A DNA stretch of 64,000 nt from Centroscyllium fabricii. Lineage: Eukaryota. How positions within the stretch are numbered: the first letter of the stretch is position 1; every line of letters starts with the position of its first letter. A program made the translations under genes and the position numbers. Shown piece by piece: positions 15,996 to 62,165 of this stretch. Where the stretch lies: the NCBI GenBank assembly GCA_051313645.2, contig JBNRSN020000008.1, forward strand, positions 247,194,001 through 247,258,000. Reading direction: 5' to 3'. The notes beneath the pieces were generated by a model. The model saw only the letters and a program-made list of their open reading frames with translations, had not been told where the DNA came from and searched no databases.

Positions 15996-16289
15996 CTGCT
16001 ACAGTGATCGTCACAAACTCGCTCCGATGGGATTCTAACCTCCTTCCGCTGACGGAGGTTTTATATCGGCATTGGTACCGCCCTCCCTGGCCTTTAATGG
16101 TAACCGGGATTGTTCCAATATTGTCCTTTCTGACAATTTGATGGGATTGCAGATATTGATTATTTTTGTAAAAATAGAAGAATTTATCGTGATAATCTCC
16201 GGTCACAGTGCAGGTAATGATGACTGTCTCTCCTACTACATAAACCCCACTCGGTTGATCAAGAGTTATCTCTGGCGTTGTTAGAGGAT
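15996..16289 (-). CDS. Ig exon D4, intact
   Basis: 294 bp, ccacAG/GTGAG, phase 1-1; DPLTTPEITLDQPSGVYVVGETVIITC..FYFYK..QGGRYQCRY..SHRSEFVTITV. Confidence 0.9.
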
Positions 16290-19744: not shown

Positions 19745-20038
19745 CTACTATAGTCGCTGTAATAGCCCCGCTCAGCTGGGAAAATATATGCCTTTGGTTG
19801 AAGGAGATTCCATATTGGCATCGGTAGCGCCCTCCCTGGTTACCATGTGTAATCGGGAATGTTGCAATGTTGCTCTTTGTTGCTATTGGGCTAGAGGACA
19901 GCATTTGGCCATCTCTGTTAAAGCGAAAGGTTTTATCACGATTATCTCCAGTCACATTGCAGGTAATGGTGACCGTCTCTCCTTCTACATACACCCCACT
20001 CCTTTGATCAAGGGATATCACTGGCGTTGTTAGCGGTT
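19745..20038 (-). CDS. Ig exon D2, intact
   Basis: 294 bp, ctcAG/GTGAG, phase 1-1; PLTTPVISLDQRSGVYVEGETVTITC..QGGRYRCQY..SQLSGAITATIV. Confidence 0.9.
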
Positions 20039-21351: not shown

Positions 21352-21636
21352 CTGTTACTGTTACTCGCGCCGAGTCACTCAGTGAGGACCAGGTCCATTG
21401 CTTATTGACATTGTATCCATACTTGCACTGGTAATCTCCTTGCTCATATCTGCTTTTTGTTGCAACGAAATGAACTCTGCTGGTAGTGGAAACCGGCAGT
21501 TCGGCCCCATCTTTATAAAAGTTATAATTGCTACCCGGGGAATTTTCATCGCCATTGCAGGTAATCGTGATGCTCTCCCCGGGCAAATACACGCCAGTCA
21601 CTTCATTCAGGGTAATTTCAGGTTTCAGTGGAATTT
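21352..21636 (-). CDS. Ig exon D1, intact
   Basis: 285 bp, cgtAG/GTGAG, phase 1-1; IPLKPEITL..GESITITC..YNFYKDG..QGDYQCKY..SSLSDSARVTVT. Confidence 0.9.
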
Positions 21637-21954
21637 CTACGGTTAAAACAATGACAGTGTCCGTCAATGAATATATTCCAGTAAGACACGTTTCAGTCTG
21701 TGTAGTAAAGAGAACGGTAAGTGCTCCGTAGAGTGCTTGAAGCAGATACATTGCTGCCCCTAAGCTGAGGATAAATATACACAGGTCGTGTTAGTGTGAA
21801 GTATAATGTGCATTATGAAAATCGGTGTGCACCAGCAGGGGCAAATTTTTTCTTTCTGTGCTATCAATTTCTTGTAATTCTATAAAATCAACACCCCATT
21901 GAGCGCTTCTAAATGACAAACATTGAAACACTAAAGCTGACAATATTCTTCATA

Positions 21955-32089: not shown

Positions 32090-35000
32090 TGACGTATCGT
32101 CAATAATGCAAAATACGAGTAGTTACCTTAACTACAGGCTTTTATTAACTTGAAGATGGAGCTAGTCTCCAGTCGAACACAAGGCAAGAATGACTGGGGG
32201 CAGGGCAGACCTTACCTATAAGCTCCCACCTGAGGGGAGGAGTTAGAGGTGTGGCTGACCTGGCCTTACCTGCAGTATTCCATACACAATGCACTCGCAA
32301 CTGTATAAAACTGTACACAAGTGGTAATATGGTTACCACATTCACACCTTTTTTGAGAATGAGTCCGGTGGGGTGAACGAGAGAGAAGAGTAAAAAAAAA
32401 AAAATTGTCCGTTTCAACAGCGTTCTATAAGTCTCTCCGACGGTCGTGTCTGCCCTGACGACCGCCGGGGTTCCGGCAGCGGTGCTGGTGCCAGTTGTGC
32501 TGTCGGGGTTCGGTCCTCCAGCAACAGTGCCCACGGCGTGGAGTCCGGCCCCAGGTTGTCGGCCAATACTGTCGAGGGCCCCGGTGTGTGGGTATATGTA
32601 GGCCAGTAATCGGTGGATGGTGGCTGGTCGGGTTGAGGCTCGACCTGGGGTTCTGCCCTAGTGCTCCCGGCGGGCGCCATTTCTCTGATTGAAACTGTGT
32701 ACTCGCGCCCATCCGGGAATTGCACGTAGGCATACTGCGGGTTGGCGTGCAGCAGCTGTACACTTTCCACCAGGGGGTCGGTCTTGTGGCCGCGGACATG
32801 CTTTCCAAGCAAGACTGGCCCTGGCGTTGTGAGCCATGGTGGGAGTGCTGTCCCCGATGTCGACTTCCTGTGGAAGGAAAATAACAGGTTGTGATGTGTA
32901 GCATTTGTAGCCATACACAGCAGAGAGCAGATGGAGTGGAGTGCGTCTGGGCGGACTTACTGCCAACGGGAAACATGAAGGCCTCTGGACTTCAGGCCCA
33001 GGTTGACCGCCTTCCAGATGATCCCGTTCTCCCTTTCTACCTGGCCGTTCCCCCGTGGGTTGTAACTGATCGTTCTGCTTGAGGCAACCCCTTTCTGAAG
33101 CAGAAACTGACGCAGCTCGTCGCTCATGAACGACGACCACCGGTCACTATGGATGTAGCTGGGGAGACCAAAAATGGTGAACAGCGTGGTGAAGTGTTTG
33201 ATCACCATTGCGCTCGTCATGTCTGGGCAGGGTAAGGCGAAGGGGACGCGGGAGAACTCGTCCACGACCGTGAGGAAGTACGAGTTGCGGTCAGTGGAGG
33301 GGAGGGGGCCTTTGAAGTCCACGCTCAGATGTTCAACGGGCGGGTGGCCTTGATGATGTGCGCCGTGTCTGGCCTGTAAATGTGGGGTTTGCACTCGGCA
33401 GAGACAGGGAACTCTCTGGTCATAGCCTTAACCTCCGTGAAAGATTAGGGAAGGCTACGGGATTTTACGAAATGGGCGAGTCTGGTGACACCCGGGTGGC
33501 AGAGGCGATCGTGGAGGGCTATCAGCCGGTCCAGCTGCGCGCTGGCGCACGTTCCCCTGGACAGTGCATCCGGGGGTTCGTTGAGCTTGCCTGGACAGTA
33601 AAGAATGTCGTACTCGTATGTCGAGAGTTCGATCCGCCACAGCAGGATCTTATCATTCTTGATTTTACACTTTTGTTTATTATTAAACATAAGCACCATG
33701 GACCGTTGGTCGGTGAGCAGGGTAAAACGCTTACCGGCCAGGTAATGGCGCCAGTAGCGCAATGCCTCCACAATGGCCTGAGCCTCCTTTTCCACTGCTG
33801 AGTGGAGAGTTTCGGGTCCCTGTAGGGTCCGGGAGCAAAACGCTATGGGCCTGCCTGCCTGATTCAGGGTGGCGGCAAGGGCGAAGTTCGAAGCATCACT
33901 CTCCACCTGGAAAGGGATGGACTCATCAACGGCGTGCATGGTCGCCTTGACAATGTCTTCCTTAATCTGGGCGAATGCTATTTGGGCTTCTTCCGAGAGG
34001 GGGATGACGTCAGCCTTGAGGAGCGGTCTGGCCCTATCCGTAAACTGGGGAACCCATTGCGCATAATAGGAAAAAAATCCTAGACATATCCTCAGGGCTT
34101 TGGGGTTGTGAGGTAGGGGCATTTCCTGTAGGGGACGCATACGCTGTGGGTCGGGGCCGATTACCCCGTTTTCCACCACGTATCCGAGGATAGCGAGCCG
34201 ATCTGTACTAAAGACGCACTTCTCTTTATTGTACGTGAGATCTAGCCATTTCGACGTGTGGAGAAATTTGGCGAGGTTGGCATTGTGGTCCTGCTTGTCA
34301 TGGCCGCAGATGTTCATGTTGTCCAGGTAGGGTAAGGTGGCCTGAACCCGTTCTGGTCAACTGTACGGTCCATCTCCCTTTGGAATACCGACCCCCCATT
34401 GGTCACACCAAAGGGGACCCGGAGGAAGTGATAGAGCCGACCGTTCACCTCGAAGGCGGTGTACTGGCGGTCGGATTTCCGGATTGGGAGTTGGTGATAT
34501 GCCAACTTAAGTTAGATTGTTGAAAAGACCTTTTTACTGGGCGATCTGGTTAACCATATCCTAGATGCTGGGAACGGGGTATGCGTCAATCCCGGTGTAG
34601 TGGTTACTCGTCTGGCTGCAGTCAATGACCATGCACAGCTTCTAACTGGTCTTAACCACCACGACCTGGGCCCGCCAGGGGCTAGTGCTGGATTCAATTA
34701 TCCCCTCTTGCTGCATATGCCCGATTTCCGACCTGATAAATGCCCGGTCCCACGCACTGTAACGCCAGCTCTTGGTAGCAATAGGTTTGCAGTTGGGGTC
34801 GAGGTTGGCGTACAGCGAGGGGGGTCGATTTACAGGGTGGATAGGCCGCAAGTCGGGCTCCGCTTTAAGAAAGGATTGTCTCGGCTACTGATGGTGAGGT
34901 GGGCCAGGGTCCCACCGAACTCCATTGTCACGCTTTTCAGGTGGCACTGGAAATCCAATCCCAGTAAGACTGGGGCGCACAGTTGCTGGAGGATATAGAG

Positions 35001-36818
35001 CTTGAAATTGCGTTAGACGCAGTCCCTGACCATGAGCGTGGCGGAGCAGTAGCCGGTGACGTCCGCCGTGTGGGACTTGGAGGCAAGGCAGATTTGGTAG
35101 TGCATGGGCAGGGTCCACAGTCCATAGCGCTGCACTGTGTCGGGGTGGATGAAGCTCTCTGTGCTTCTGGTGTCGAACAGGCAGTTAGTAATGTGCCCGT
35201 CCACTTTAATCCCCATCATGGAATTTGATAGGGTGCGGCCTAGCCTGGTCAACAATGGCTGAGGCCGAAGTGTGTGTGTGTGTGTAGGGGCCCTTGGCTA
35301 GCTGGAGCCGTTCACAAGATGGCGGCTCCCGTGGTTCACACGCGGCTGACCGCGGTGGACAAGATGGCTGCACCAGGGGTCGCACATGGATGGCCGCTGA
35401 AGACAAGATGGCGGCGCCCGTGATTCACACGCGGCAGGCCGCAGTGGACAAGATGGCGGCGCCGGGGGGGTCGCACATGTCTGGCCGCTGAAGACAAGAT
35501 GGCGGCGCCCGTGATTCGCATGCGGCGGAATGTGGCAGATGAGATGGCGGTGCCCGTGATTTGCATGCAGTGGACCATGCTGGGTGAGATGGCGGCATTG
35601 GGGGGTCGCACATGGCCGGCCACGGCCGCCTCTGGCGTGGCGGCACCCGTGCCACGCGCGCAGCCGGCATCCGCCATACAGGAATGGGGGATTGAAGCAC
35701 CCGTGATTTACCCCCGGACCGCTGCTGGGTCACGCTGCAACAGTTTACCTTGGGCCATGGGATGGCGTTGGAGGTCTGGATCTGGACACTGGGGCCGAAT
35801 TGCAGGCCCTGGTGTAGTGTCCCTTTTTGTTGCATCGCTCGCAGGTCGCGCTCCCCGTGGGGCACTGAGCTCACGGGTGCTGTCCCTGGCTGCAGAAGTA
35901 GCATCTTCACTCCGACGGCGTCTTCAAAGCTGCCACTGCCACTGCCACTGTGAGGTTCTCGGCCTGTCGTGGTGGCACCCAGGAATCGAGGGTATCATGT
36001 GGGCCTTGGCCGCCGTATGCCTCTGGCTTGTGGTGCGCTCCGTCTACCGCATTGGAAATGGAGATCGCGTCTTCCAGTGACAGAGTGTCCTTTTCCAGCA
36101 GCCACTGGCGGGCCTGGCTGGACCTGATTTCGGCGACGTATGCATCCCATACTAGGAGATCCGTCTCCTCCTCTGCCATTCGTGGCTGGCAGTCGCAGGC
36201 CCGTGCGAGGGCTTGAAGTGCCAACAGGAATTGTTCATTCTACTCACCGAGCTGTTGTTGTCTGGTCGCTAGGATGTGTCTGGCATGGACCGAGCGGACC
36301 GGGCGCAAGTAGCATTCCTTCAGTTTATTCACTGCCTCCGTGTAGGTTGTGAGGCCGCGGATAAAGGAGTATAACAGGCTGCTGATTCTTGACGAGAGGA
36401 CCTCCAGTTTGTCCCCGTCGCTCTTTGCCTTTGCGGCCTTCATGTAGGCCTCGACTAGGCCGAACCATGGTTCAAAAGCGTTAGCAGCGTCTGGTTCTTG
36501 AGGATTTAAATCCAACCTGACCGTTTTCACTGTGTTACTCTCCATTTTAAAATCAAGTTAATAAAATTGATGCATCGTCCATAATGCAAAAGACGTGTAG
36601 TTACCTCAACTACAGGCTTTTATTAACTTGAAGATGGAGCTAGTCTCCCGTTGAACACAAGGCAAGAATGACTGGGGGCAGGGCAGACCTTACCTATAAG
36701 CTCCCACCTGAGTGGAGGAGTTAGAGGTGTGGCTGACCTGGCCATACATGCAGTATTCCATACACAATGCACTCACAATGATTTACAACTGTACACAAGT
36801 GGTTATATGGTTACCACA
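32090..36818 (-). mobile_element. Gypsy/Ty3 LTR retrotransposon (gag-PR-RT-RH-IN), frameshifted
   Basis: 251-bp LTRs at 32090-32340 and 36568-36818 (TG..CA, roughly 7% different by eye); 5-bp TSD CAACC at 32085-32089 and 36819-36823; PPT at ~32341-32355; PR FDTRS, RT PFGVTN, RH DASN and IN HSDR/NGQVER motifs. Confidence 0.93.
35315..35600. repeat. ~45-bp tandem repeat in the Gypsy gag-PR linker
   Basis: (C/G)A-AGATGGC core at 35315, 35360, 35404, 35449, 35495, 35541 and 35586. Confidence 0.8.
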
Positions 36819-39769: not shown

Positions 39770-41370
39770 GTATTAAACCTGGCATTGTAGTTAGTAGTGA
39801 GGAGGATAGCAGCAGACGTCCGAATGACAGAGGCAGACTGGTGAAATAGTCAGAAACATTGCAGCTGACATTCAGTGCAGAGAAGTGTGAATTGATGGAT
39901 TTTGGACAGACAAATGTAAGATACCATTTATAGGAAATTGTAAAATGTTCCAGGGCTCTCAAGAGCAAAGTGCACAGACAAAGGTCATTAAAGATGTAAG
40001 GGCCAGTTGATCCATCTGTTGCATAAAATAACTTTAAGATATTTTGCTTTAAGAGTAGGGACACAAATACCAAAGGAAGGGGGGTATGCTTAACATTTGT
40101 AAATCATGGTTAGGCCTCAGCTGGAGCATTGTATCCAATTCTGGGCATCACACATTGGAAAGGATCTCCTGACCTTCTTAACGGTGCAGAGGAAATTTAC
40201 CAGAATTGCAGGATGATGGAAATAATTTAAATATGTGGTCAGATTGAGAAGCTGGGGTTGTTCACCTTTTTGCAGAGAAGGTTAAGGGAAGATTGGCCAG
40301 AAAGATAGCAGTGATGATGGTCTTCAGTTATATGGTGTGGCTGGAGAATCTGTGATTGTTGACCTTGGAGCAAACCAAGCATGTGCCATAAGGATGAAAG
40401 GTGGGGGTTCTAAATCTACAGCTCCTGGATGAGAAACAGAATACAGCTTAAACTAAACAGAGAAAAGGAGGCAAATACCAATTGCTGAATACAGCAGAAC
40501 ACAAGGTCCAATAGTGAGAGTGCGAGCAGAAATTGATCAAACTGTTTAAGAGGGGTACACGGAGAGAATGAAAACAGATTAGCGGGTAACATCAATCTTC
40601 CTTAATAAGCGATGGAGGGAAAGTGGGGCCGAATATTTTCAAAAGAGGAAATATTTTTGTGGAGGCAGAGACCATGACTGATGTACTGAATGTTTAGTTT
40701 GCATCTGTCTTCACACAGGAAGAGGATAAGTAAATGTTGCAGTACATCTACTGGATAGGATAAAATAGATAGCAAGGGTGTGAACAATAACTTGGTGTTA
40801 ATAACATTAACACATCACCTGATCTATATGGGATGTATCCTCAATTGCTGAGGGAAGTGAAAGAGGAGATATCAGAAGTTCTGACCACATTCTTAAAAAA
40901 CACGATGAGAATGGGAGTGGCGCGTGAGGAATGAGTAACTGTAAAATGTCAGATGACTGTTCAAAAAACTGAAGAGCGATATAAAAGTTAATGGCAGGCT
41001 AATCAGTTTACAATCAGTGTAGTGGAAACTACTGGAGACGATTGTCCAGGGCAATATTAATTCTCACTTACAGGAGCATGCTTTAATATGTGGCAGTCAT
41101 TTTGGAATGGTTCAAGTAAATTCTTGATTGTCTAACCTGATTGCGTATTTTGGTATAATATCAATGATGGTTGATGAAGAATTTGCAGTAGATTTTATAT
41201 GTCTATAAATGCATTTAAGTATCAATTAACAGACTCACTCGAAGTGCAGAATCTCATGATATAATAGGCACGATGGTCAATTGAGTACTCAATTGGCTAC
41301 GTGATAAGATGCAGAGAGTAGTGTTGAACGGATGCTTCAGTGACTGTGCGGAAGTACGCAGTGTTATAGA
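39770..41370 (+). mobile_element. Old CR1 fragments within a segmentally duplicated block (paralog at ~57170-59430)
   Basis: Decayed CR1 motifs; collinear similarity to the 57-59 kb block, including non-CR1 flank (39480 vs 56870). Confidence 0.65.
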
Positions 41371-41491
41371 AAAATAGACATAGAAACATAGAAGATAGGA
41401 GCAGGAGTAGGCCATTCGGCCCTTCGACCCTGCTCCGCCATTCAATGAGATCATGGCTGATCATCCAAACTCAGCACCCTGTCCCTGCTTT

Positions 41492-42135
41492 TGACAGGTT
41501 AGGTTTTCTTTCACCCACAGTTGTACGATAAACTCGAGACACCACACACGAGAAGTTGAGTTCAACTTGTTTATTCGCCAGCTGGCTCAGGTAATTTACA
41601 AGCATCTACCAAGTCTGATGACTAGGCTCAGCGAGTAAAGAACTGCGCTGAACAGTCAAAAGGTTCGATCTTTTATTCTTAAAAACCACAAACAGCTTAT
41701 TTTAGTTAAACCAATCACTGACTTACATACAGAAGTAGGGCAGAGGATTCAAAGAAATATTTACAGTTTCTGCAATAACAAAGGCTGTGAGACAAGGGGA
41801 ATATAGTGTGGTTAGCTGCAGTCGCCTAACCGTTATCTTTTGTTCGCCTGGAGCAGCTATCTCCACACGAGGTGTGACTTTTTTGAGCCTGCATCAGCCA
41901 TCCTGAAACGCTTATCTCTATACTCGGGCGCGCCATCTAGCTTGTGGTGAACTAGACTGTCGAGTCAGAGCTTGACCTATTTTCTGCAACTGCAGAGCAA
42001 GCAGTTTTGGTCTTAAAGCAGAAGTAAGGTATTTGTACAAAATGCAATTTATTCTAGTTTCTCCCAAAGCTCCTATCTTCTATCTAGGGATCATCTCGGG
42101 TCTGTCCCGGCCTCGGGAGATATTTTACTCTGTCA
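41492..42135 (-). repeat. ERV 3' LTR (PPT at ~42136-42147)
   Basis: TGACAG..CTGTCA termini; adjacent ttccccccttt is the polypurine tract on the minus strand. Confidence 0.97.
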
Positions 42136-42435
42136 TTCCCCCCTTTTGTCATTACCATGACAATAATTTACCTCAAAACACGGACTTATGAGAAGTGGTT
42201 TATTGGTCCTACCAGAGTTTATTTCTGATGTCCGGTGCCTTATAGCCCCCGAAGCCTGGACTAAGTGATATACAGAGTCGACAGGCCGGCTTGTTGAGAC
42301 CACTCTCTTCCCTAGTCCCATTGTCTCTAGGTTATACCCCCCTTTTATTAACTGTCTTTTAGGTCTCTAAACTAATTTGGTCTTGAGGCCCTGGTGACGT
42401 GTTGTTTTTAGGACCTATGGGGAGGGGGTAGTTCG

Positions 42436-42810
42436 TCACTGGGGTAGTTCATACGAGTGTTCATCTTGTTGGTCGTCTTTCTCAGGTAGGTGAACCTGAT
42501 TGAGTCTTGCACATTCCTTCTCCATGGCTTCTCTTTCTTCCTGGTTGATGAGCCATGCATCTCCATCCTCGATCTGTTCTTCTTGATCATCTCCTTTATC
42601 CGCTATCAATCGGTGCAGCATCATCTTCTGGGTGGTCTGTAATCCATCAACCACATCTCCAATGCTTCCTACCGAACGCATCATTCTGGCAAGAATACAT
42701 TTAAGCACAGCAAGTCCAACCAGGATGCAAAGTAGAATGATTCCGAGGTATATGGCTATATTAACAAACCAGTCATACCATCCAATAATTCCCCAGTTTT
42801 CTCCAGTCGT
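42436..42810 (-). pseudogene. env: env TM anchor and cytoplasmic tail, out of frame with the upstream env ORF
   Basis: WGIIGWYDWFVNIAIYLGIILLCILVGLAVLKCILARMM followed by an acidic tail; fusion peptide and heptad region absent. Confidence 0.75.
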
Positions 42811-43612
42811 GCCTCCTCTTGGGTGCTTCCTTAGATTCGTCCATGCAGGTGATGGGGCTTTCAGTAATCCCCCACAGAGGGGAGACGGTGAACATATCTA
42901 GTACTGATTCGGGATTATAGCAGATAGGACCAGAATTGGGTCCGAACACGGACTCATGTATTTTGTGGAATAGATTAGTAATACCATTAGCTGGAGGTCC
43001 TGGGTTATTATTACTGGGGTCCTCGGGGGTAGGAGGCCCATCGGCTGTTGAGATACTTGGAAGGGGGGGGTGCCAGTCTGTTGATTCTATACTACGTTTT
43101 ATCCTAGACTTATCTTTGCGATCTAATCTCTTGGAGTCGGCTAACTCTGCTCGCCTACCTACTTCAGGATCTGGATGTGACTGAGCTTCCCGTAAGCACA
43201 TTCCCTCTGGCAATGTCTGCTTATACTTTACATCCTCATTATGTTTGTGTTCACATTTAAAATCAAATTTACATTCTTGGTAGTTGCAAGGCAACCCCCA
43301 CTGGTTTCTGAGTTCTAAGGTTCTTTGTCTATCAGTCTGTTTCAACCAACCGGTACAAAAGTCATTTTTGGTTACAGTCCAGCTTCCGAATGGATCCGAA
43401 GGATCAACACAGGTGATCATGTCTCCTTTACACAGGTGTCTGACTTTGTCCTTCTTGGCTCCAGATGAACACGTAAAGGTTCTACTTCTGTTCTTGCTGG
43501 TCGGTTGTCTGCTGATCTGTGGCTTCCTCTGTTCCTCATCAATTGTGATCCATTGTCCCTCAATGTCCACCAGTAGGTATAGCAGCGTGATGAGGACGAG
43601 TGGTACCCTCAT
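42773..43612 (-). CDS. env: Truncated Env (signal peptide plus N-terminal SU-like region), 279 aa, no membrane anchor
   Basis: ATG 37 nt after a strong acceptor (43651-43650); MRVPLVLITLLYLLVDIEG leader; Cys-rich region, RIKR basic site, proline-rich stretch, NLF..CY motif; located between IN and the PPT. Confidence 0.75.
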   Translation of the reverse strand: MRVPLVLITLLYLLVDIEGQWITIDEEQRKPQISRQPTSKNRSRTFTCSSGAKKDKVRHLCKGDMITCVDPSDPFGSWTVTKNDFCTGWLKQTDRQRTLELRNQWGLPCNYQECKFDFKCEHKHNEDVKYKQTLPEGMCLREAQSHPDPEVGRRAELADSKRLDRKDKSRIKRSIESTDWHPPLPSISTADGPPTPEDPSNNNPGPPANGITNLFHKIHESVFGPNSGPICYNPESVLDMFTVSPLWGITESPITCMDESKEAPKRRHDWRKLGNYWMV

Positions 43613-43694
43613 TTCTTCGGTTTTATGATCCTCCCGTTATTGCTACGGTCTGAAAGAATACAAAAACTAACAAAAGGGTTATTGCATCTTCTTT

Positions 43695-45311
43695 TTACTG
43701 ATCTTTAAGTGTCCCCACCTTCTTGACCTCCTCGACCCTATCCCCCCCCTTCTGATTACTTGTAATCAGTTTGCAATGATGAAGGTGAACCCAAGCATTG
43801 CGTCCTTCAAGTTTTGCTGCTGTGGGGGTGGTCAAGAGTACTTGGTAGGGACCAGTCCATCTTCTCTCCAGACCTTTGTGTGTCCAGTTTTTAACAAGGA
43901 CAAAGGTGCCTGGGACGATTTCTTGGGACAACTGGAGAGTTGGTGTAGGCCCATGGGCAGATCGGACCTATGAATGTGCATAACGTAAAGCATCAGTTAG
44001 ATTTAAAACATAGTCAGTTATTTCCTCAGTCATGTGATGAAAGTGGACTGTAGCAGGTGGTCGATCACCCCACGGGGTCCTGACTGGGCGACCATAGACA
44101 ATCTCTGATGGGGAAAGTTGGTGCCGTCCTGCTGGTGTAACACGGATCTGAAAAAGAGCTATTGGTAGTAATTTAAACCATGTTGACCCAGTTTGCTCCA
44201 CCAGTTTGGCGAGCTTATTTTTAAGGGTCTGATTCATGCGTTCGACAAGTCCTGCTGCTTGAGGATGATAAGCACAATGAAGTTCTTGTTCAATCCCTAA
44301 CTGTTTGCACATTTCTTTATTAATCTCCCCAATAAAGTGTGGTCCATTGTCAGAACTGATCCGAGCAGGAATACCATACCGAGGGATAATTTCGCAGAGC
44401 AATACTTTTACAACTGTTGAGGCTTTGTTATCAGAAGTGGGATATGCCTCTATCCATTTACTAAACACATCAACAATTACAAGAACATACTGATAACCAT
44501 TACATTTTGGCAGAGTTATATAATCCATTTGGAGAGTGTCAAAGGGACCCGAAGGGAGAGGGGTTTTTCCTTTGGCAAATTTTGAACCCGGGGATGGGTT
44601 ATGTTGTGAGCATACTAAACATCTATTAGAAAATGTAGCCGCCAGGGCTTGAAGTCTCGGGTGCCACCAGGTTTTAAGTAATAGATCGGTAGTTTGACGG
44701 GCGCCACAATGAGTAAGAAAATGAACACTTTCAATCACCCATCCCGCTAATACATCAGTCATACATGCTTGCCCAACTGGAGTAACCCAGAGTCCCTCTG
44801 AGTTACTCTTACAAGAGTGTTGGGTCCATAATTGCTTAACAGACTCAGGAGCGTCCCCCTGTAATAAAATAACATCCTTAATGGTTGGCATTGGTTTATC
44901 AGACGCAAAGATTCCCGGTGAAGGGGTTTTGGCTTGTGTCATCATTTGTAATGTAACCATCTGATTACCGAGTGAGGCCTTTTTGGCAGCAAAATCGGCA
45001 TTTCTATTTCCTATATCAACAGGGGTAGTCCCCGCAGTATGAGCTGAACATTTAATAACTGCTATTGATGTGGGCAACATGATAGCGAGCAAAAGATCAG
45101 AAACGAGTTGGCTGTTTGAGATCAAGGCACCTGATGAAGCAATAAAACCGCGATTCTTCCACAACTGTCCAAAATCATGCACTACTCCAAAGGCATACCG
45201 AGAGTCAGTGTAAATGTTCACAGACTGGTCATGAGCAAAGACACAAGCTTGAGTAAGAGCGTACAGTTCTGCTTGCTGGGCTGAAACGGGGTGCTGAATG
45301 GCCCCAGACAC
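43695..45311 (-). pseudogene. pol: pol 3' part: RNase H plus integrase, one in-frame TAG at 43970-43968
   Basis: SAQQAELYAL, IYTDSRYAFG, H..H..C..C, QMDYI / SSDNG / GLVER (DDE), then in the same frame RWTGPYQVLLTTPTA..WVH. Confidence 0.93.
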
Positions 45312-45484
45312 ACAGGTCTTCCCATCTTGGAAAACATTTTACTGCTTTGACCTGTGTCTCAGCTGAAGATCTGAGAGGTTCTTCTTTTACAACTTCCTCC
45401 CAGTCATCACTTAAGTCCTCATCTACTTCTTCGTCTGTGTCTATTGGTTCTTCAGCAACAGTAACAATCAATTGTTGAAATGTT

Positions 45485-46138
45485 TTACTGGGGGAAGGTT
45501 TGCCGTTTTTTGCCCCTTAGTCTAGTTTTAGATCTAGTTCCGTCTGATACTTTGTCATGATACTGTGGCGGGTTGCCTGAGGCAGACGGCGTGGACACTC
45601 CGGTACTGGAGTGTCCCCGAGGTACTTTCCTTTGTGTACCTCGTGTACCCTTCACGGGAGGAGGTGCCAGCCCGGAGGGTGGTCCAACAAATATATTCGT
45701 CGAAACAGGAGTCTGTGATACTGGCGGAGGTTGGATTGGTGGAGGTACTACTTGGACAGGTGGCGGCACTATACTGGGATATATTAATGGTACTTGAGGG
45801 GCGGCAGATTGGACTGCTACGTACGGGGGAGGTGGTGCCAATGGTGTCACAGGCGCGGTTGGTCCATAGAGATTCGGGGGATACCATTCCAAAAGACTAT
45901 CGCCATCTGGATCATCTAAACCAATGCCTACCATCGACTTACGTAAGTCTTTTACCTCGGCCGTTAGGTCCCGTTTGGAACCTTTTTGTTGTTTTACAAA
46001 CGTTACCTCCTTTTTCAATATGTCTTTCCAAAATACTGTAAAAACATTGAATATAACTGGAAAAAAATTGTTATTCATATTTAAGCAAATCAAATCAAAC
46101 TGCTTCGGAAGGTTTCTCCATAGCAACCGCGACTCCAA
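45485..46138 (-). pseudogene. gag: gag fragment with late domains
   Basis: GPTAPVTPLAPPPPY (PTAP and PPPY) in a proline-rich p12-like stretch; CA and NC are missing. Confidence 0.75.
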
Positions 46139-46923
46139 GATTAACTCTAAGACTGAAACGTAATCTTTTGTTAAACAATCCTTTTGTTGTTCTCAGTTTT
46201 TAGACACCAGCTTAATTTAAATAAGTTCCAGTTTTTTTTTTTTTAAGACAGACTTTCCGAAATAAAGTTTATCAATTTTTTTTTTTTTTTTTTTTAAGGG
46301 GACTCGGTCTCCTTTGATTAAACGTTTCATCAATTACCAATTCACGGGCACTCCCCATGGGCTTTATCCCTCCTCAAGAGCAGCAGCTGATCAAGAAGCT
46401 ACTTTCGAGGTCGGATCTATTACACAATCTTATTCGTACATTCGTAAAACTCCAAAATCCAATCCAAGACAAGAGGGTTAAATGCTTTTAACACAGACGT
46501 GGGTGGAGTTAAACCACACATAACAGAATAAATTGGGGAAAAAGGTTAACTCGTATTACTCTTAAACATAGGGTCGTTTTCATTTCATAATTCACTACAT
46601 TTTGTACATCAGTTAACACACACACACTTCATTCAACTCCAACCAAATCCATTCATACGGCAGAAAGAATACAACACCAACAACCGAGAGAGAGAGAAAC
46701 ACGCATCCTGTGACCTTGGAGAGGAAAGCACAGGCTTTTAAAGAGACAGTCCATTCAGGACGACGGAACACATTCTGTAGGTTTCCCCCACCCTCAGCCC
46801 CAGGGGTCCTGAGGGCCAGCCTCTCCCAACAAAGGTGGACCAATTCGTCCAGTCCCGCACTTCTCGACACACCACACAATGAGAACCACAAAAACAAGAA
46901 CCAAAACCACCACAAATTCAACA

Positions 46924-47145
46924 CTACCCTGGCTCTTCCATCACCACCATTTCCCATATCCTTTGTTGTGCAACTTTGACGGTGGCTACATTACTTGATC
47001 CTCCCGTTGGCCATTCAACCAATCCCAATCTGTGCGACAGTCCAGCGGAAAGTTTTCTAAATTTTTCAATTTTATCTGGATGTTTGTCACATAACTGTTG
47101 TAATGGACTGGATGGGTCTGCACAAGTATCTACAACATTTCCCAT
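46924..47145 (-). CDS. Matrix-like short ORF
   Basis: MGN.. myristoylation-type start, SPL and WPxGGS motifs typical of class I MA. Confidence 0.6.
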   Translation of the reverse strand: MGNVVDTCADPSSPLQQLCDKHPDKIEKFRKLSAGLSHRLGLVEWPTGGSSNVATVKVAQQRIWEMVVMEEPG

Positions 47146-47352
47146 GATCTTACTATCTGTTTATTAGTGTGACCCTATTGTCTTCTTCGTCCTGATCAGA
47201 CTTTACTGGTACGTTAATTCCTTTTTGTTCATATAGATCAAAACACCAAATTAAAAGACAAATAATGTTTAATATCAAAATTACTGTAAATCCAAGTGTA
47301 TCCAAATTCATTAATCTAATTTTATTGAGAGACTCGTTAATACTCCATTTTT

Positions 47353-47910
47353 AGTCAGAGAACCACTCCATCTGACCTTTCTAATCACCCTAATATTTTA
47401 TTTTAAGTCAGAGAACCAATCTATCTGACTTCTCTAATTACCCTAATAGTCAGAGAACCAATCTATCTGACTTCTCTAATTACCCTAATAGTCAGAGAAC
47501 CAATCTATCTGACTTCTCTAATTACCCTAATAGTCAGAGAACCAATCTATCTGACTTCTCTAATTACCCTAATAGTCAGAGAACCAATCTATCTGACTTC
47601 TGTAATTTATTTTTTTAGTCAGAGAACCACTCCATCTGACTTCTCTAATTTATTTTTTTAGTCAGAGAACCACTCCATCTGACTTCTCTAATTTATTTTT
47701 TTAGTCAGAGAACCACTCCATCTGACTTCTCTAATTTATTTTTTTAGTCAGAGAACCACTCCATCTGACTTCTCTAATTTATTTTTTTAGTCAGAGAACC
47801 ACTCCATCTGACTTCTCTAATTTATTTTTTTAGTCAGAGAACCACTCCATCTGACTTCTCTAATTTATTTTTTTAGTCAGAGAACCACTCCATCTGACTT
47901 CTCTAATTAC
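47353..47910. repeat. 13-copy 42/43-bp hairpin tandem array in the ERV leader
   Basis: AGTCAGA-N11-TCTGAC(T) at 47353, 47406, 47448, 47490, 47532, 47574, 47617, 47660, 47703, 47746, 47789, 47832 and 47875. Confidence 0.95.
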
Positions 47911-48150
47911 CTTAAAGACCCATTCAATTTAAGGTTAGACTCGTGGGTGTCACAACTGTATTTTATTTGATTCCGTCACACAGTCTGCCCCCTCGTGGTG
48001 AACTCGAGTTTACTCAAAAATCGGTTTTGACAGTCAGGAGAACAAAGTGGCACTTTAAATAAATGTACTCACTTTGGTGGCCTATTCCTTTCAATCAATC
48101 CGTTGAGCAACTCTATATCAACCACGGGTGGTCAGAACTGTGATTTTGGA

Positions 48151-48168
48151 ATCCCGGACGAGCCCCCA
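48151..48168 (-). promoter_or_regulatory. Primer binding site, tRNA-Pro
   Basis: TGGGGGCTCGTCCGGGAT, 2 nt downstream of the 5' LTR; the canonical Pro PBS as in MLV. Confidence 0.95.
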
Positions 48169-48170
48169 AA

Positions 48171-48814
48171 TGACAGGTTAGGTTTTCTTTCACCCACAGT
48201 TGTACGATAAACTCGAGACACCACACACGAGAAGTTGAGTTCAACTTGTTTATTCGCCAGCTGGCTCAGGTAATTTACAAGCATCTACCAAGTCTGATGA
48301 CTAGGCTCAGCGAGTAAAGAACTGCGCTGAACAGTCAAAAGGTTCGATCTTTTATTCTTAAAAACCACAAACAGCTTATTTTAGTTAAACCAATCACTGA
48401 CTTACATACAGAAGTAGGGCAGAGGATTCAAAGAAATATTTACAGTTTCTGCAATAACAAAGGCTGTGAGACAAGGGGAATATAGTGTGGTTAGCTGCAG
48501 TCGCCTAACCGTTATCTTTTGTTCGCCTGGAGCAGCTATCTCCACACGAGGTGTGACTTTTTTGAGCCTGCATCAGCCATCCTGAAACGCTTATCTCTAT
48601 ACTCGGGCGCGCCATCTAGCTTGTGGTGAACTAGACTGTCGAGTCAGAGCTTGACCTATTTTCTGCAACTGCAGAGCAAGCAGTTTTGGTCTTAAAGCAG
48701 AAGTAAGGTATTTGTACAAAATGCAATTTATTCTAGTTTCTCCCAAAGCTCCTATCTTCTATCTAGGGATCATCTCGGGTCTGTCCCGGCCTCGGGAGAT
48801 ATTTTACTCTGTCA
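48171..48814 (-). repeat. ERV 5' LTR
   Basis: Matches 41492-42135; PBS is adjacent. Confidence 0.97.
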
Positions 48815-48879
48815 CTTTCTCCCCATATCCCTCGATCCCTATCGAGCCTGCACCGACACATATCCCACCCTATCCCCGT

Positions 48880-51800
48880 ATGGTGCAACGAGAAGGGATT
48901 TAAATTCCTGGGGTTTTGGTACCGGATCTGTGGGAGTTTGGACCAATGCAAACTGGATTGTTTGCAAGTGGGCGGGACCGGGACCGATGCCCTGGTGGGA
49001 GTGTTTGGTAGTTCTGTTGTGGAGAGTTTCAACTGAAATCGCAGGGGAATGTGAACCCGTGGAGGGAAAGGGACGCATGGATAGAACAACAAGACAGGAT
49101 GGAGAAAAGCAAAAGTGGAAGGCAGCGATATCAAATGTGTAAATGAAAAAACGGCTACAGTAAGTAATAATTCCAAAATGACTAAGTGTTTTAAAAGAAC
49201 AAGCCCAAAGGCGTTGTGTCTTAATAAAAGGAGCATTCGCAATAAGGTGGAATAATTATCTGCGCAAATAGCTGTAAACGAATCTGATTTTATTGGGATT
49301 ACAGAGACATTGCACCATGGTGACCAAGGCTGGGAATTTCAAATCCTGCGGTATTCAATATTCAGAAAATCCAGGCCAAAATGAAAGAGTGCTCGGGGGA
49401 CATTACAATTTAAAGAGGAGATTAACATAATCTAAAGGAACGATGTTAGCTTTGATGATGTGTAATCTGTATTGGTAAAATTGAGACGTATCAAGGAGCA
49501 GAACACGTTAGTCGGTGGTGTATACAGACCTGCAAACGTTTATGCAGAATTTGGGGACAGCATTAAACGGGAAATTAGAGAGCTGTGGAAGAAGGTTACA
49601 GCAGGTGTAATGGGTGACTTAATCAACATTTAGATTGGGCTAACCAACATAGTTACAATAATGTGGAGGAGGAATTCCGAGAGTGTATACAGATGTTTTC
49701 TTTGACCAATATGTGTAGGAACCAACTAGAGGTCAAGCCATTTTAGACTGGGCATTATGTAATGAGAAAGGATTAATTAGCAATGCTGCTGTGCGAGGCC
49801 CCTTTGGGAGGAGCGATAATAAACTGATAGAATTCCTCATGCGACTCCATTTTACCAATACAGATTACACATCATCAAAGCTAACAACGTTCCTTTAGAT
49901 TATGTTAATCTCCTCTTTAAATTGCTAATTACCCCGAGCACTCTTTCCTTTTGGCCTGGATTTTTTGAATATTGAATACCGCTGGATTTTGAATTCCCAG
50001 CCTTGGTCACCATGGTGCAATCTCTCTGTAATCCCAATAACATCAGATTAGTTTACATCTATTTGCGCAGATAATTCATCCACCTTATTGCGAATGCTCC
50101 TTGTATTAAGACGGTGGATAGGCAATGGCGAACTTTTGAAGATCCCATGAATGAACTATAGAAATTTATCATCTAAGATTGGGATAAAAGAAAACATTGA
50201 CTCAATCGTGGATAAGAAGGGAAATTCGGGATAGCATAATACACAAGGAAAAGCCTTATTCATTGGCTACGAATAGCAGGAAAAGCTGAGGAAGAGGATC
50301 TGTTTAGGATTCAGCAGAGGAGGACAATGCGATTAATTAAGAGGGGTAAAACAGAATATGAGAGAAAGGTTGAAGGGAACATAAAAACTGACTGTAAAAG
50401 CTTCTACAGATATGTGAAGAGAAGAAGACTGGTGAAGTCAAGCGTAGCTCCCTTGCAGTCAGAATCAGGGGAATTTATAATGGGGAGCAATGTAATGGCA
50501 GGCGAATTAATGACATACGTTGGTTCTGTGATCACAAAAGAGGAAACCGGTAAATTTCCGCGGGTGTCGGGGTACATGGGCTCTAATGAGAGGGAGGAAT
50601 TTAATTACATCGGCGTTTGTAAGGAAACCATGTTAAGGGAATAGACGGCACTCAATGCAGATTAGTCCCCAGGGCCTGATTATCTACATCCTAGGGTACT
50701 GAAGGAAGTGGTCTTATAAATAGTAGATGCATTGCTGGTCATCTTACACATTTCTAAAGACTCCTGAATAGGTCCCATGGTTTGGAGGGTAGCCAATATA
50801 ATCCCACAATTTAAAAAAGCTGTCAGAGAGAAAATGGGGAATTATAGACCGTTAAGCCTGACATTAGAAGTTGGAAAAAGGCTAGAGTCCATTATAACAA
50901 TAACAGAGCACTTGGAAAGCAGTGACAGGGTCGGACAGAGTCAACATGGATTTTCAATGGATAAATCATGCTTCACTAATCTACTGGAATTTTTTGAGAA
51001 TGTATCGTGTAGAAGAGATAAGGGAGAACCAGTGGATGTGGTGTATTTGAACATTCAGAAGGCTTTCGATAGGTCCGGCACATGAGACTGGCGTGCAATT
51101 TCAAAGCACATGGGATTGGGGTAAGGTACTCACTTAGATAGAGAACTGGTTGGCAAAAAGGAAGCCACGTGTTGAAATAAACGTGTATTTTATTGCGAGT
51201 GACAGGCAGTGACTAGTTGGGGACCGCAAGGATTATTGTTTCGACCCCAGGCAACAAAAAAGTGGGTGGTCTTGTGTGCTTTAAGACGAATGCAGAGAAC
51301 GTCCAGTATGATTTGGACAGGTTGGATGATTGGGCAGAAGTATGGCCTGTGCAATATAATGTGAATACACGAAGTTTATTGATTTTGGAGGCTAAGCCAT
51401 GAAGATAGATTATTACCTGAAGGGCAGTTGATTGGGAAAAGTTGAAGGGCAACGACACCTGGTTGTCATTGTGCACCAGTTGCTGAAGGATTCCAGTGCA
51501 GGAGCAGGGATCTCTTGTGGCAGTTGTACAGGACCTTGGTGAGGCCACACCTTGACGGTCGTGTGCATTTTGGTCGCCTTATCAGTGGAAAGTTGTACTT
51601 GCCATGGAGGGAGTGCAGATACATTCAACATACTGATACATGGGATGGTAGGAATAACGTATATAGAAAGGTTGTTTCGGAAATACATTAATTCGCTAGA
51701 TTTTAGAAGAATGAGGGGTGATCTCATTGAAAATTATAAAATTCTAACAGGAGAGAATAGATGTAGGAAGGTTGTTCCCGATGGCCGGGGAGTCCAGAAC

Positions 51801-52074: not shown

Positions 52075-54440
52075 ACTAACTATTTACTAACTGGCTTATA
52101 CTGGAGTATTGTATATAATTCTAAGCACCGCACGCTATGAATGGTGTCAAGTGGTTCGGAAGGGTACAGAGAGAGTTTCCAAATAAAGTTTGGCATGATG
52201 GCAATCCATTACAGTAGATACATTTGAATTTGGCACAACAGTCCATGTAAATGGCAGAGCCATACGAGGTATTGAGAATACTATGGGATTTAGTAGAGCA
52301 AGGAGAGATGAATTTTCGGATGCAAATTACAAAGCTTTCTCATTATTTATGAAAGGCCCAGAGGGGAGATGAGGTGAAACCATTTGACTCAGAGGGCTGT
52401 TAAGATCTGGAACACATCACGGGAAAGTGCTTTGGAATCAGAATCCACAGCAACTTCCATAAGGTCATTGGAAATGTGCTTGAAGAGCACCAATGTGCAT
52501 GTTTATAGATTAATAGCTCGAGCCTGGGACTAAATATCCTCCCTCTGCACTGTAAGATTGAATGTCTCAAACCAAATAAGGTCCATCGAGATGACATTTT
52601 GTAAACAATTCCAATTATACAAGGCTGGGATCAAATGTGCCTTTGGCTTAAATAAAAAACACAATTAAAAGATGCTCAGATACACAAACGGTGCATTATG
52701 TGACTGAGTGAAACCAAAGCCAAAGGAAAGCACCTGGGTGGACTCTGTGTGCAAATATTGAGAAACTTTACAGATCTCCACATGCGACCATACGAGGAAA
52801 CACAATGGCAAGGCTCTAGTGGAAACTGCATTGTGGAAGGGAGGGAGGCTATAACATTACGAAATGAGATTGAAAACATTGAGTTTTCCCGACAGATTGT
52901 GAGCACCAAACGCAGCTGCGGCACTACTTTTTTGAAGGACATTAGTCTCCGCCCACTGTGCAGATCAATAACCCCGTGAAATGCTCAGCTCCAGCTGACT
53001 GAATGAGGTCCTGGAATTTCATTAAATTCTGCGATCTGAAAGCCGCCTGAATTAGTCATCAGAGAGGTTTAGTTGTGCAGACAATACTCACGAGCACAAT
53101 GATATTAAACATCACCTCAAATTGAGACGCAAGATGGAAAAGAGAATGAAAAATAACCAAGCAAAGGGAAACTGTTCAGTAATGCAGAAAACATTAGCAG
53201 CAGTTAGGTGTGAAAACGGAAGGCTGCGGTTTTAAATCGAAGCAGCTTCAGTTTAATGAAAGAGGAATTAAGCTGCTCACTGAATGAACAGTGTCTCAGA
53301 GCCAACGTCAGAGTTGAAATATATTTACAGCATTATAGAGTGACTGTATTAAAATAATTGTCATCCAGTTCCTCTGGAATTACACTCCAATATCCCCCCC
53401 ATCTCCGCGCATTATCTGTTCAAGTTTGAGTGCAGACACTGAGTGCGTTGCTTGACCTGAGAACAGCAGTGGTGAGTCCGTCAGAACGTAACCACCCTAC
53501 CGCGCATGCTCGCTCCCCAGCAGACAGCAGATATCAAAGAGCAACATCACGTCATTTGTCCGAGGATTCCTTCAGTTTCCTCGGAGCACTGAACTGAATG
53601 GTAGCACCAGGATCTCTCCTTGTTGGAGATAAAGGAACTCAGCAAGGAGCGGATGTGGATCATTGAGTCTTACTTTAATGTATTTCTCAGCTCTGCACTG
53701 CAGGCTCTAACTGAGCTATCGGGGGACCAATATGCTCCACTATTCCCTTGATAAAAAACACTATTCACCAAATCCAGCCCAGTAACACATTTAACAGTGC
53801 ATTATCAAACCAAGGGATGATCATTGAGTTCAACTTATCCATACGGTAGTTTAGGAGACAATTCTTCATACAGAGAGTGGACACAATGTGGAGAATGGGA
53901 CCACACGGTGTAGCTGCGGAGAATAGCATTGAGTTATTTAAGGTGATATTGTTGGTAACATGAGGGAGAATGAATAGGGGGTTATGCTGATACTTTCATC
54001 TGAATTAAATTGGGAGCAGGCTGGAGTGGATGATAATCAACGGCAGAGACCTGTTGGGGGCAAATGTCCTTGTCTCCCTGTTGCTACATTCATGTAATTC
54101 TATTTAATTTCATGCTGAATTTCACAATGACAGCAAATGCTGTAAGCGGAAGCCTGTGGTCTCAGCTCTGAAGCGATTCCTCTCTGATAGGGAGTAATTT
54201 AACCCCTGTCAGTAAGAACAATACATCAGAACCAAGAATGTGTATAAACACATTGAAATAAATACATGGTGCCATTCCTTCTTATACTCTTTCAGCCGAA
54301 TAGTTAATTAATTCTTGGATAAAGCACCACCATGTGTGGTGTAGTAGCAGTCTGAAACTCCATACTGTCATTTATTAATACAACTCAATTCAAGTTATTA
54401 AAATAAAAAGGTTATGTCATATTCCCATTGCATCCTCTAA
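52075..54440. repeat. Segmental duplication unit containing module copy 3; paralog at ~59860-62165 contains copy 4
   Basis: Long collinear matches, e.g. aatttcatgctgaatttcacaatgacagcaaatgctgtaag at ~54106 and ~61871, and agtctccgcccactgt at ~52943 and ~60743. Confidence 0.88.
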
Positions 54441-57679: not shown

Positions 57680-58445
57680 GAACATTAACCAGTATGGTCC
57701 AGGGATGATGGACTTCAGTTTTGTGGCGAGCCTGGTGAAGCTGATATATTTGAACTTAGGGCAGAGGAGGTTAAGGGAAGATTTATCAGAATGGTACCAG
57801 GGAAGATGGACTTCAGTTATGTGGAGAGGCTGGTGAAGCTGGGGTTTTTCAACTTATGGCATAGAAGGTTCATGGAAGATTTATCAGAATGGTAGCAGGA
57901 AAGATGGACTTCAGTGAAGTGGAGAGGCTGGAGAAGCTGGGGTTTTTCAACTTATGGCATAGAAGGTTCATGGAAGATTTATCAGAATGGTAGCAGGGAA
58001 GATGGACCTCAGTGAAGTGGAGAGGCTGGTGAAGCTAGGGTTTTTCAACTTATGGCATAGAAGGTTCATGGAAGATTTATCAGAATGGTAGCAGGGAAGA
58101 TGGACCTCAGTGAAGTGGAGAGGCTGGTGAAGCTGGGGTTTAACAATTTATGGCAGAGGAGGTTCATGGAAGATTTATCAGAATGGTAGCAGGGAAGATG
58201 GACTTCAGTTAAGTGGAGAGCCTGAAGGACCTGGGATTTTTCAACTTATCGCAGAGAAGGTAAAGGGAAGATTGATCAGAATGGTACCACGGATGACGGA
58301 CTTCAATTATGTGGAGAGTCTGGCGAAGCTGGGTGATTTCATCTTATGGCAGAGAAGTTTAAGTGAAGATTTACCAGAATGGTAGCAGGGATGATGGACT
58401 TCAGTGAAGTGGAGTGGTTTTAGAAGCTGGGAATATTCTCCTTTG
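57680..58445 (+). repeat. 98-bp minisatellite (~8 copies) derived from the CR1 ORF2 C-terminus
   Basis: GAAGATT recurs at 57777, 57875, 57973, 58071, 58169, 58267 and 58365. Confidence 0.92.
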
Positions 58446-61400: not shown

Positions 61401-62165
61401 GATCAGGGGACTCAGAAAGGAGCGGATGTCGATCATTGGGTCTTTCTTTGATGTATTTCTTAGCTCTGCAATGCAGGCTCTATCTGAGCTATCGGTGGCC
61501 GATATGCGCCACTATTCTACTGATAAAAAAACATTATTCACCAAATGCAGTCAAGTAACAAATTTAACAGTGCTTTATCATACCAAGGGATGATCATTTC
61601 GTTCCAATATGAATTTAGGAGACCATTCTTCACCCTGAGAGTGTACACAATGTGGAAAATGGGACCAAATGGTGTCTTTACAGAGAATAGCACAGATACA
61701 TTTAAGGTGGTACTAATTGGCAACATGAGGCAGAAAGAATAGGGCGTTATGCTCATACCGTCATCTGAATTACATTGGGGGCAGTTTGGAGTGGGATTTA
61801 ATCAAAGGCACAGTCCTGTTAGGGCCGAATGGCCTTGTCTCTCAGCCGCTATTTTCATGTAATTCTGTTTAATTTCATGCTGAATTTCACAATGACAGCA
61901 AATGCTGTAAGTGGAAGCCTGTGGTTTCAGCTCTGAAGCGCTTCACCTAGGATAGGGAGGAATTTAACCCCTGACAGTAAGAACAAGAATGTGTATAAAC
62001 ACATTGAAACAAATACATTGTGCCATTCCTTCTTATAATCTTTCAGCCGATAACTTAGTTAATTCCTGGTTACAGCTCCAACATGAGTGGGGCAGTAGCA
62101 GACTGAAACTCGTTGATGATATTTATTAGTACAATTCAATTCAATTATTAATTAAAATATTATGT

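What the first reader, a model, noticed from the sequence alone, without database searches (positions are those of the whole stretch)
41488..48818. Freshly inserted but RT-less endogenous retrovirus implies an active helper virus in a shark
Seen: 644-bp LTRs with no mismatch found, a perfect TSD, PBS-Pro and PPT. Yet CA, NC, PR and RT are deleted (the gag remnant joins RNase H near 45315), IN has a stop and env is internally deleted. Established: LTRs are identical at integration. Inference: the element was already defective when it integrated and was mobilised in trans, VL30/ETn-style, so a recently active class I retrovirus with a satellite family should exist in this lineage.
Basis: partly seen in the sequence, partly recalled or inferred. 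Interest (0 to 1): 0.75.

Follow-up and report, generated by a model that had tools for sequence, protein, structure and literature searches.

The report
Young gutted retrovirus in cartilaginous fish
This retrovirus remnant, in what is likely a shark or ray genome, has two perfectly matching ends but lacks the gene for copying itself, so it was likely copied by a working relative; no such helper was found, and because sharks mutate slowly the insertion could be millions of years old.

Summary
The anatomy is confirmed: a minus-strand provirus with two 644-bp LTRs (0 mismatches), a 4-bp target duplication, primer site and polypurine tract. The gag remnant joins RNase H (capsid to RT missing), integrase has a stop, and about 350 env codons are deleted. 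Its integrase falls in a class I clade sampled only from sharks and skates (100/100). Three or four lesions beside identical LTRs are unlikely if all arose after integration (p 0.001-0.04, assumed rates), so most probably predate it, and copying in trans is the best reading (0.55). 'Fresh': at shark mutation rates, zero LTR differences allow up to about 3 million generations. 'Helper': none found; the best protein match is 74%. 'Satellite family': no genome was held and no reads could be laid, so shared junctions are untested. Runs from three studies hold 53-72% of the sampled words, which suggests a multi-copy family. It resembles IAP 1Δ1 or cattle D-type deletion derivatives more than VL30/ETn. 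Intact ERVs with identical LTRs are already listed as candidates in a catshark and a skate. New member of a known kind.

The parts
48815..48818 (.). target-site duplication, right copy (4 bp)
   Evidence: flanks align through uninterrupted copies of the host repeat
48171..48814 (-). 5' LTR, 644 bp, TG...CA; TATA-like box near 48356 and AATAAA at 48254
48151..48168 (-). primer-binding site, 2 nt from the LTR (tRNA-Pro type by recall)
   Evidence: tRNA label recalled
47347..47922 (-). tandem array in the leader: four identical 42-nt units, one mixed unit, six identical 43-nt units and two edge units
46924..47145 (-). 73-aa upstream ORF starting Met-Gly; looks like a Gag matrix N-terminus by eye; unassigned
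   Evidence: no Pfam, atlas, PDB or clear fold match
45339..46358 (-). gag remnant: Met-Gly start at 46358, frame breaks at two A runs (46276-46295, 46232-46244), proline-rich stretch with PTAP and PPPY motifs, inferred frame change near 45510, acidic stretch, then the deletion joint
   Evidence: assignment by position and motifs, no homolog found
43971..45338 (-). pol remnant: RNase H lacking its first motif, then integrase zinc finger and core; out of frame with the gag remnant
   Evidence: Pfam PF00075, PF17921, PF00665; 63% to skate Pol residues 780-1218
43968..43970 (-). stop codon between integrase core and C-terminal domain
43695..43967 (-). integrase C-terminal domain (MLV type), cut off by the stop
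   Evidence: Pfam PF18697, E 3e-15
43645..43675 (-). pyrimidine tract and AG, predicted env splice acceptor
   Evidence: sequence; function inferred
42773..43612 (-). env 5' remnant: open 279-aa frame with signal-like start, Cys-rich domain and basic cleavage-like motif; ends just after the deletion joint (between about 42845 and 42813)
42436..42813 (-). env 3' remnant: membrane-proximal region, transmembrane helix and tail, in another frame
42136..42147 (-). polypurine tract
41492..42135 (-). 3' LTR, 644 bp, identical to the 5' LTR
41488..41491 (.). target-site duplication, left copy (4 bp)
41374..41491 (+). left half of the interrupted host short repeat (right half 48819-48880)

Best explanation
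This is a class I endogenous retrovirus with identical LTRs that lacks capsid, protease and reverse transcriptase; it was likely already defective as an RNA and was likely packaged, reverse-transcribed and integrated by proteins of an intact relative. Shown: one integration into a host repeat, all cis signals kept (LTRs, primer site, purine tract, long leader), two large deletions and an integrase stop. Inferred: most lesions are older than the LTR pair; the parent family is multi-copy and was functional shortly before; the supplier was an endogenous or exogenous member of the same family. The insertion is young on the host's mutation clock (under about 0.23% divergence) but may be up to millions of years old. 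Whether the helper is still active is unknown.
For: LTR identity, target duplication and continuous host flanks. Deletions mapped against full-length relatives. Lesion-versus-LTR test: p 0.005-0.04 for three lesions and 0.001-0.014 for four if all arose after integration. Integrase core departs at 0 of 37 columns conserved in at least 90% of 141 relatives; the median relative departs at 1. Nine runs of 3 studies hold 0.53-0.72 of the words of 41000-47330, of which LTR plus flank make only 18%. In the cloudy catshark a related env family has full-length 664-aa copies and premature ends shared across chromosomes: 8 of 21 members examined share one end, on 7 different contig lengths, so damaged copies of this lineage do get multiplied. 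A neighbouring Gypsy element keeps LTRs at 235/250, so the assembly does not level all LTR pairs. Precedent: IAP 1Δ1 (PMC6466679) and cattle D-type elements (PMC10924933).
Against: No second copy with the same joints was seen: no genome is held and no reads were laid. No helper: the best protein identity is 74%, and the env search of 1.84 billion representatives peaks at 43%. Scans of viral and metagenome contigs were empty. The p values rest on assumed indel and deletion rates, and the gag frame changes have no homolog behind them and lie at or near A runs that may be sequencing errors. With only two lesions p is 0.03-0.12. Two of three runs listed from the gut-metagenome study hold next to none of the words. 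The high word share in small contig sets could reflect library type and not copy number. A shared env truncation in catshark needs no gag-pol helper.
Confidence: 0.55

Rival explanations
1. One-off casualty, no satellite family. An env-deleted or intact parent supplied its own proteins; the gag-pol deletion arose in the reverse-transcription round that made this copy; the integrase stop and gag slips arose afterwards or are errors in A runs.
For: Only one or two lesions then need to postdate integration (p 0.17-0.34 for one, derived; 0.03-0.12 for two). The coding remnants are almost undamaged, as expected one step from a functional parent. No second deleted copy was seen.
Against: It needs a particular order of at least three events, and gag shows several frame breaks. 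Shared lesions are common in the related catshark family.
Confidence: 0.22
2. An older provirus that decayed in place. Its LTRs stayed identical through the very slow shark mutation rate or were levelled by gene conversion.
For: 7e-10 per generation gives a 95% bound of 3.3 million generations. Gene conversion was predicted in 25% of plant LTR pairs (PMC7251063, abstract).
Against: A slow clock slows internal lesions equally, and this is what one search tests. Conversion would have to cover all 644 bp end to end. The target duplication is perfect, and the integrase shows no decay at conserved columns.
Confidence: 0.15
3. Assembly or polishing artefact. Reads from many near-identical LTRs overwrote both LTRs, or the internal deletions are mis-joins between copies.
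For: The family appears multi-copy; no run holds more than 0.72 of the words; long A runs occur in gag. No reads were laid.
Against: No Ns in the window, an exact target duplication and continuous host flanks. A nearby LTR pair stays 6% divergent. Two unit types in the leader array are resolved cleanly.
Confidence: 0.08

Closest known systems
Unnamed class I ERV lineage of sharks and skates (gene models in Leucoraja erinacea XP_055501356.1, Amblyraja radiata, Heptranchias perlo XP_067824723.1, Scyliorhinus torazame, S. canicula XP_038668122.1, Heterodontus, Pristiophorus)
   Same: RNase H and integrase 55-74% identical; window, sevengill and skate rows form a 100/100 integrase clade; Env shares the Cys-rich N-terminal domain and transmembrane region.
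   Different: Those models include RT-bearing Pol and full 646-664-aa Env; none is close enough to be this element's helper.
Mouse IAP 1Δ1 (PMC6466679, passages)
   Same: Internal deletion across gag and pol; non-autonomous; needs Gag and Pol in trans.
   Different: IAP is class II. 1Δ1 makes an in-frame Gag-Pol fusion protein and is a proven multi-copy, active subtype; here the joint is out of frame and copy number is untested.
Cattle ERVK[2-1-LTR] D-type elements (PMC10924933, abstract) and koala recKoRV (PMC6112702, abstract)
   Same: Defective members of a young ERV family spread with the help of competent members.
   Different: Shown there with population data; recKoRV is a recombinant with an unrelated older element, while this one is a colinear deletion derivative.
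Mouse VL30 and ETn (PMC6466679, passages)
   Same: Non-autonomous LTR elements mobilised by MLV or MusD; VL30 is class I.
   Different: Their internal regions are largely non-coding or decayed (recalled); here about 3.5 kb of nearly open gag, pol and env frames remain.
ERVi and ERVi candidates of Wang and Han 2023 (PMC10435555)
   Same: Identical LTRs. Their Data 1 stars Scyliorhinus canicula and Amblyraja radiata as having candidates.
   Different: ERVi need intact genes and polymorphism, and the screen starts from RT, so it cannot see this element. A search of the list of 412 for two genera, two orders and the word 'cartilaginous' found nothing.
Elephant shark CmiERV lineages II and III (PMC4422223)
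   Same: Epsilon-like class I ERVs of a cartilaginous fish.
   Different: LTR divergence 2.4-3.3%, dated over 50 million years; not compared by sequence here.

Membership tests
Class I (gamma/epsilon-like) endogenous retrovirus | Paired LTRs with TG...CA ends, short target duplication, primer site and purine tract | tested here: met
Class I (gamma/epsilon-like) endogenous retrovirus | Pol groups with class I retroviruses; MLV-type integrase C-terminal domain | tested here: met
   Top Pol hits are class I; PF18697; integrase tree of 38 rows, all class I, no outgroup
Class I (gamma/epsilon-like) endogenous retrovirus | Gamma-type env downstream of pol | tested here: met
   Remnants match full-length Envs that carry PF00429; the ectodomain motifs fall inside the deletion
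Class I (gamma/epsilon-like) endogenous retrovirus | Placement by reverse-transcriptase phylogeny | not testable with these tools
   RT is deleted
Genus Epsilonretrovirus | Clusters with the walleye viruses | tested here: inconclusive
   The shark/skate clade joins neither WEHV-1 nor the gamma rows with support (45/74)
Genus Epsilonretrovirus | Accessory ORFs before gag and after env (recalled feature) | tested here: inconclusive
   Only about 290 bp lie between env and the purine tract; a 73-aa ORF precedes gag but is unassigned
Non-autonomous trans-mobilised ERV family (IAP 1Δ1, D-type, VL30/ETn) | Lacks its own replication enzymes | tested here: met
Non-autonomous trans-mobilised ERV family (IAP 1Δ1, D-type, VL30/ETn) | Keeps cis signals for priming and integration | tested here: met
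   the packaging signal itself was not located
Non-autonomous trans-mobilised ERV family (IAP 1Δ1, D-type, VL30/ETn) | Several loci share the same defective structure | not testable with these tools
   No genome held, no reads laid; word shares suggest a multi-copy family but cannot resolve the joints, which are about 1% of the words
Non-autonomous trans-mobilised ERV family (IAP 1Δ1, D-type, VL30/ETn) | An autonomous partner with matching LTRs exists | tested here: inconclusive
   None found; the host's own ERV proteins appear to be absent from these collections
VL30/ETn type specifically | Internal region largely non-coding or decayed (recalled) | tested here: not met
   3474 nt of remnants examined are open in frame; 0 of 37 conserved integrase columns changed
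ERVi (invading ERV, PMC10435555) | Identical LTRs | tested here: met
ERVi (invading ERV, PMC10435555) | Intact gag, pro, pol, env | tested here: not met
ERVi (invading ERV, PMC10435555) | Insertional polymorphism | not testable with these tools
   No reads laid

The most novel reading that the evidence does not exclude
A cartilaginous fish is being invaded now by a class I retrovirus of a shark-and-skate lineage, and a doubly deleted satellite, of which this is one polymorphic copy, spreads on its proteins: a confirmed ongoing germ-line invasion with a parasite-of-parasite family in sharks and rays, a group in which my searches found none reported, visible only as RT-less copies that RT-based screens miss.
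Probability: 0.25. Interest if true: 0.65.

Novelty: new member of a known kind. Interest (0 to 1): 0.4.

Why it matters
In the papers I found, shark ERVs are dated at tens of millions of years (PMC4422223, PMC10699275), and the 2004-genome screen gave no hit for the shark and skate terms searched among its confirmed invading ERVs, though two species had candidates (PMC10435555). A young RT-less copy marks a family that such screens would miss, and gives exact joints and flanks for a cheap polymorphism test. It also shows how weak 'identical LTRs' is as an age marker in the slowest-mutating vertebrates. The mechanism itself, complementation in trans, is textbook.

Tried and rejected
Own genome: none held, so copies sharing the joints could not be counted. 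No RNA holder was listed. An exact 24-nt LTR pattern in metagenome contigs gave 0 matches; integrase queries in viral and metagenome contigs gave 1 and 84 pattern matches, none confirmed. The word-based env search among longer proteins found nothing; HMMER then found 8 relatives. Gag: no homolog by Pfam, atlas or BLAST against the proteins held; only low-complexity proline matches, rejected. Upstream ORF: atlas top score 0.80, no PDB sequence match under E 0.98, model pLDDT 68, Foldseek nothing, VIA best Z 5.2 (retroviral capsids at ranks 1, 5 and 9 among unrelated helical proteins); treated as no evidence. Earlier findings of the scan: three look-ups, nothing. Tree: 38 chosen rows, P0020 dropped for short coverage, midpoint root, no outgroup. 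CpG ratios of element (0.45-0.78) and flanks (0.50-0.58) were uninformative. No tRNA gene in the window. Rejected: a chimera of two insertions (flanks are continuous); that env is not deleted; Epsilonretrovirus membership as shown (unresolved).
Full report
Observation. The element lies on the minus strand from 48814 to 41492. Its LTRs are 644 bp, differ at 0 positions, end TG...CA and are flanked by the same four bases. It interrupts a short host repeat; the flanks align continuously to two uninterrupted copies elsewhere in the window. A primer site follows the 5' LTR and a purine tract precedes the 3' LTR; the tRNA-Pro label is recalled. No other part of the window matches the element by blastn.

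Coding content. Of 8 frames scanned, Pfam finds RNase H without its first 31 profile positions, the integrase zinc finger and core, and, behind a stop at 43970-43968, the MLV-type C-terminal domain. A skate Pol matches only from residue 780 of 1225, at window 45335, so protease, RT and the start of RNase H are missing. Capsid and nucleocapsid are also absent: the gag remnant ends after a proline-rich and an acidic stretch. Gag has no homolog among my results, so its frame breaks (two A runs, one inferred change near 45510) are uncertain. HMMER found 8 env relatives; the named ones are from sharks. Against a 664-aa catshark Env, residues 227-578 are missing and the two remnants are in different frames.

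Identity. The closest Pol relatives are from skates, catsharks, sevengill, horn shark and sawshark at 55-74%; teleost and tetrapod relatives are near 40%. In an integrase tree of 38 chosen rows the element groups with sevengill and skate rows at 100/100 and joins neither walleye epsilon nor gamma rows with support. The host is therefore likely a cartilaginous fish; shark versus ray was not determined.

Were the lesions there before integration? If all lesions and any LTR differences accumulate on one clock, the chance that k lesions appear with no LTR difference follows from the target sizes. With 3474 coding nt, a computed nonsense fraction of 4.3% and assumed indel and deletion rates, p is 0.03-0.12 for k=2, 0.005-0.04 for k=3 and 0.001-0.014 for k=4. 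Three lesions are firm (two deletions, one stop), a fourth is likely. So most predate the last LTR copying, unless the LTRs were levelled by conversion or polishing. This does not force a satellite family: one deletion can arise in the final round of reverse transcription, leaving one or two later lesions. The integrase core departs at 0 of 37 columns conserved in 141 relatives (141 kept of 173 hits), so the lineage left a functional parent recently.

How young? Zero differences bound divergence at 0.23%. At 7e-10 per generation (PMC10587355, passages) that is up to 3.3 million generations, median 0.8 million; at the 2.2e-10 per year assumed for elephant shark (PMC4422223, first of two parts) up to 10.6 million years. 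'Freshly inserted' and 'active helper' therefore overstate the evidence. A Gypsy element 5 kb away has LTRs at 235/250, so the provirus is much younger than it and the assembly keeps LTR differences.

Other copies. No genome was held and no reads were laid. The run index lists 11 runs; 9 from 3 studies hold 0.53-0.72 of 663 words, and 2 runs of the gut-metagenome study hold next to none. Leaving out the best study as a possible source, two remain. LTR and flank make 18% of the query, so internal sequence is held too. Five holders have only 175-309 Mb of contigs, where single-copy DNA of a 2-4 Gb genome would give 4-15%. I infer a multi-copy family within 1-2% of this copy, but library types are guessed and the joints are about 1% of the words. 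No helper was found in any collection, which probably lack this host's ERV proteins. In the cloudy catshark, 21 of 58 members of two related env clusters were examined: 2 are full length (one of them at three loci), 8 share one premature end, 4 a second, 2 a third, 4 have their own, and 1 is unrelated. These are gene models of another species, but they show this lineage young, multi-copy and amplifying damaged copies.

Mechanism. Most likely a transcribed defective provirus kept its LTRs, primer site, leader and purine tract, was packaged by Gag of an intact relative, and was copied and integrated by that relative's enzymes (0.55). Rivals: one-off deletion in the last round (0.22), decay in place with slow or converted LTRs (0.15), artefact (0.08).

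Literature. Complementation in trans is a standard route of ERV amplification (PMC10435555, introduction passage). The closest analogues are IAP 1Δ1 (PMC6466679, passages) and cattle D-type elements (PMC10924933, abstract); recKoRV (PMC6112702, abstract and opening) differs in being recombinant. In zebrafish 248 of 890 elements examined have identical LTRs and most elements are incomplete (PMC8672886, passages), so the pattern is common in fish. Wang and Han screened 13 cartilaginous fishes, starting from RT (section 14). Their Data 1 stars S. canicula and A. radiata as having candidates (I saw rows for 5 of the 13 species), and five shark and skate terms are absent from the list of 412 confirmed elements; one supplementary PDF was too large to read. 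A 2026 preprint reports 295 Env candidates in 16 chondrichthyans, epsilon-like in catshark (10.64898/2026.05.06.723177, first part and passages; supplements not seen and may include this family). PMC10699275 (passages) and PMC7251063 (abstract) were used for dates and gene conversion. Five searches showed no paper on a non-autonomous or polymorphic ERV family in sharks or rays; the library lacks most subscription journals.

Verdict. A real, cleanly resolved, young defective class I provirus of a shark-and-skate lineage. Pre-integration damage and copying in trans are likely; a living helper and a satellite family are not shown. New member of a known kind; interest 0.4.

Noticed in passing
window 46924-47145 and 46358, minus strand: Two Met-Gly starts with matrix-like look precede the gag remnant: a 73-aa three-helix ORF about 790 nt upstream of the presumed gag start. 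It may be a duplicated matrix piece, an accessory ORF or a trace of recombination; unassigned.
   Followed up: partly
window 47347-47922: Leader array of 13 units of 42-53 nt with two blocks of identical units, suggesting recent expansion; it makes the leader about 1.8 kb long.
   Followed up: partly
window 42773-43612, minus strand: The env deletion leaves an open 279-aa frame with signal-like start and no membrane anchor behind a predicted splice acceptor; if expressed it would be a secreted truncated Env, like known receptor-blocking factors (recalled). No expression evidence.
   Followed up: no
P0124-P0147 (Scyliorhinus torazame gene models): A related env family has at least 58 cluster members, full-length copies 99% alike, and premature ends shared across chromosomes: a young multi-copy ERV family in the cloudy catshark.
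   Followed up: partly
window 32090-36818: Ty3/Gypsy-type LTR element with 251-bp LTRs (235/250 identical), an apparent 5-bp target duplication, and broken RT, RNase H and integrase frames; used as a local control.
   Followed up: partly
window 62930-63460, minus strand: A second integrase-like remnant, distantly similar to retroviral Pol queries.
   Followed up: no
window 10321-10780: Degenerate interstitial array of telomere-like GGGTTA/GGGTTC units.
   Followed up: no
window 21317-21790, minus strand: Exon-like frame with an immunoglobulin domain (PF13895, E 4e-10); the provirus may lie in or near an Ig-superfamily gene.
   Followed up: no
window 52300-54400 and 60100-62150; 12165-20095: Old local duplications: about 7.8 kb spacing at 74-89% identity, and about 3.75 kb spacing at 63-86%.
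   Followed up: no
window 49218-50112; 57700-58414: A 274-nt inverted repeat pair at 92% just right of the provirus, and a 98-nt tandem array of about 7 copies.
   Followed up: no
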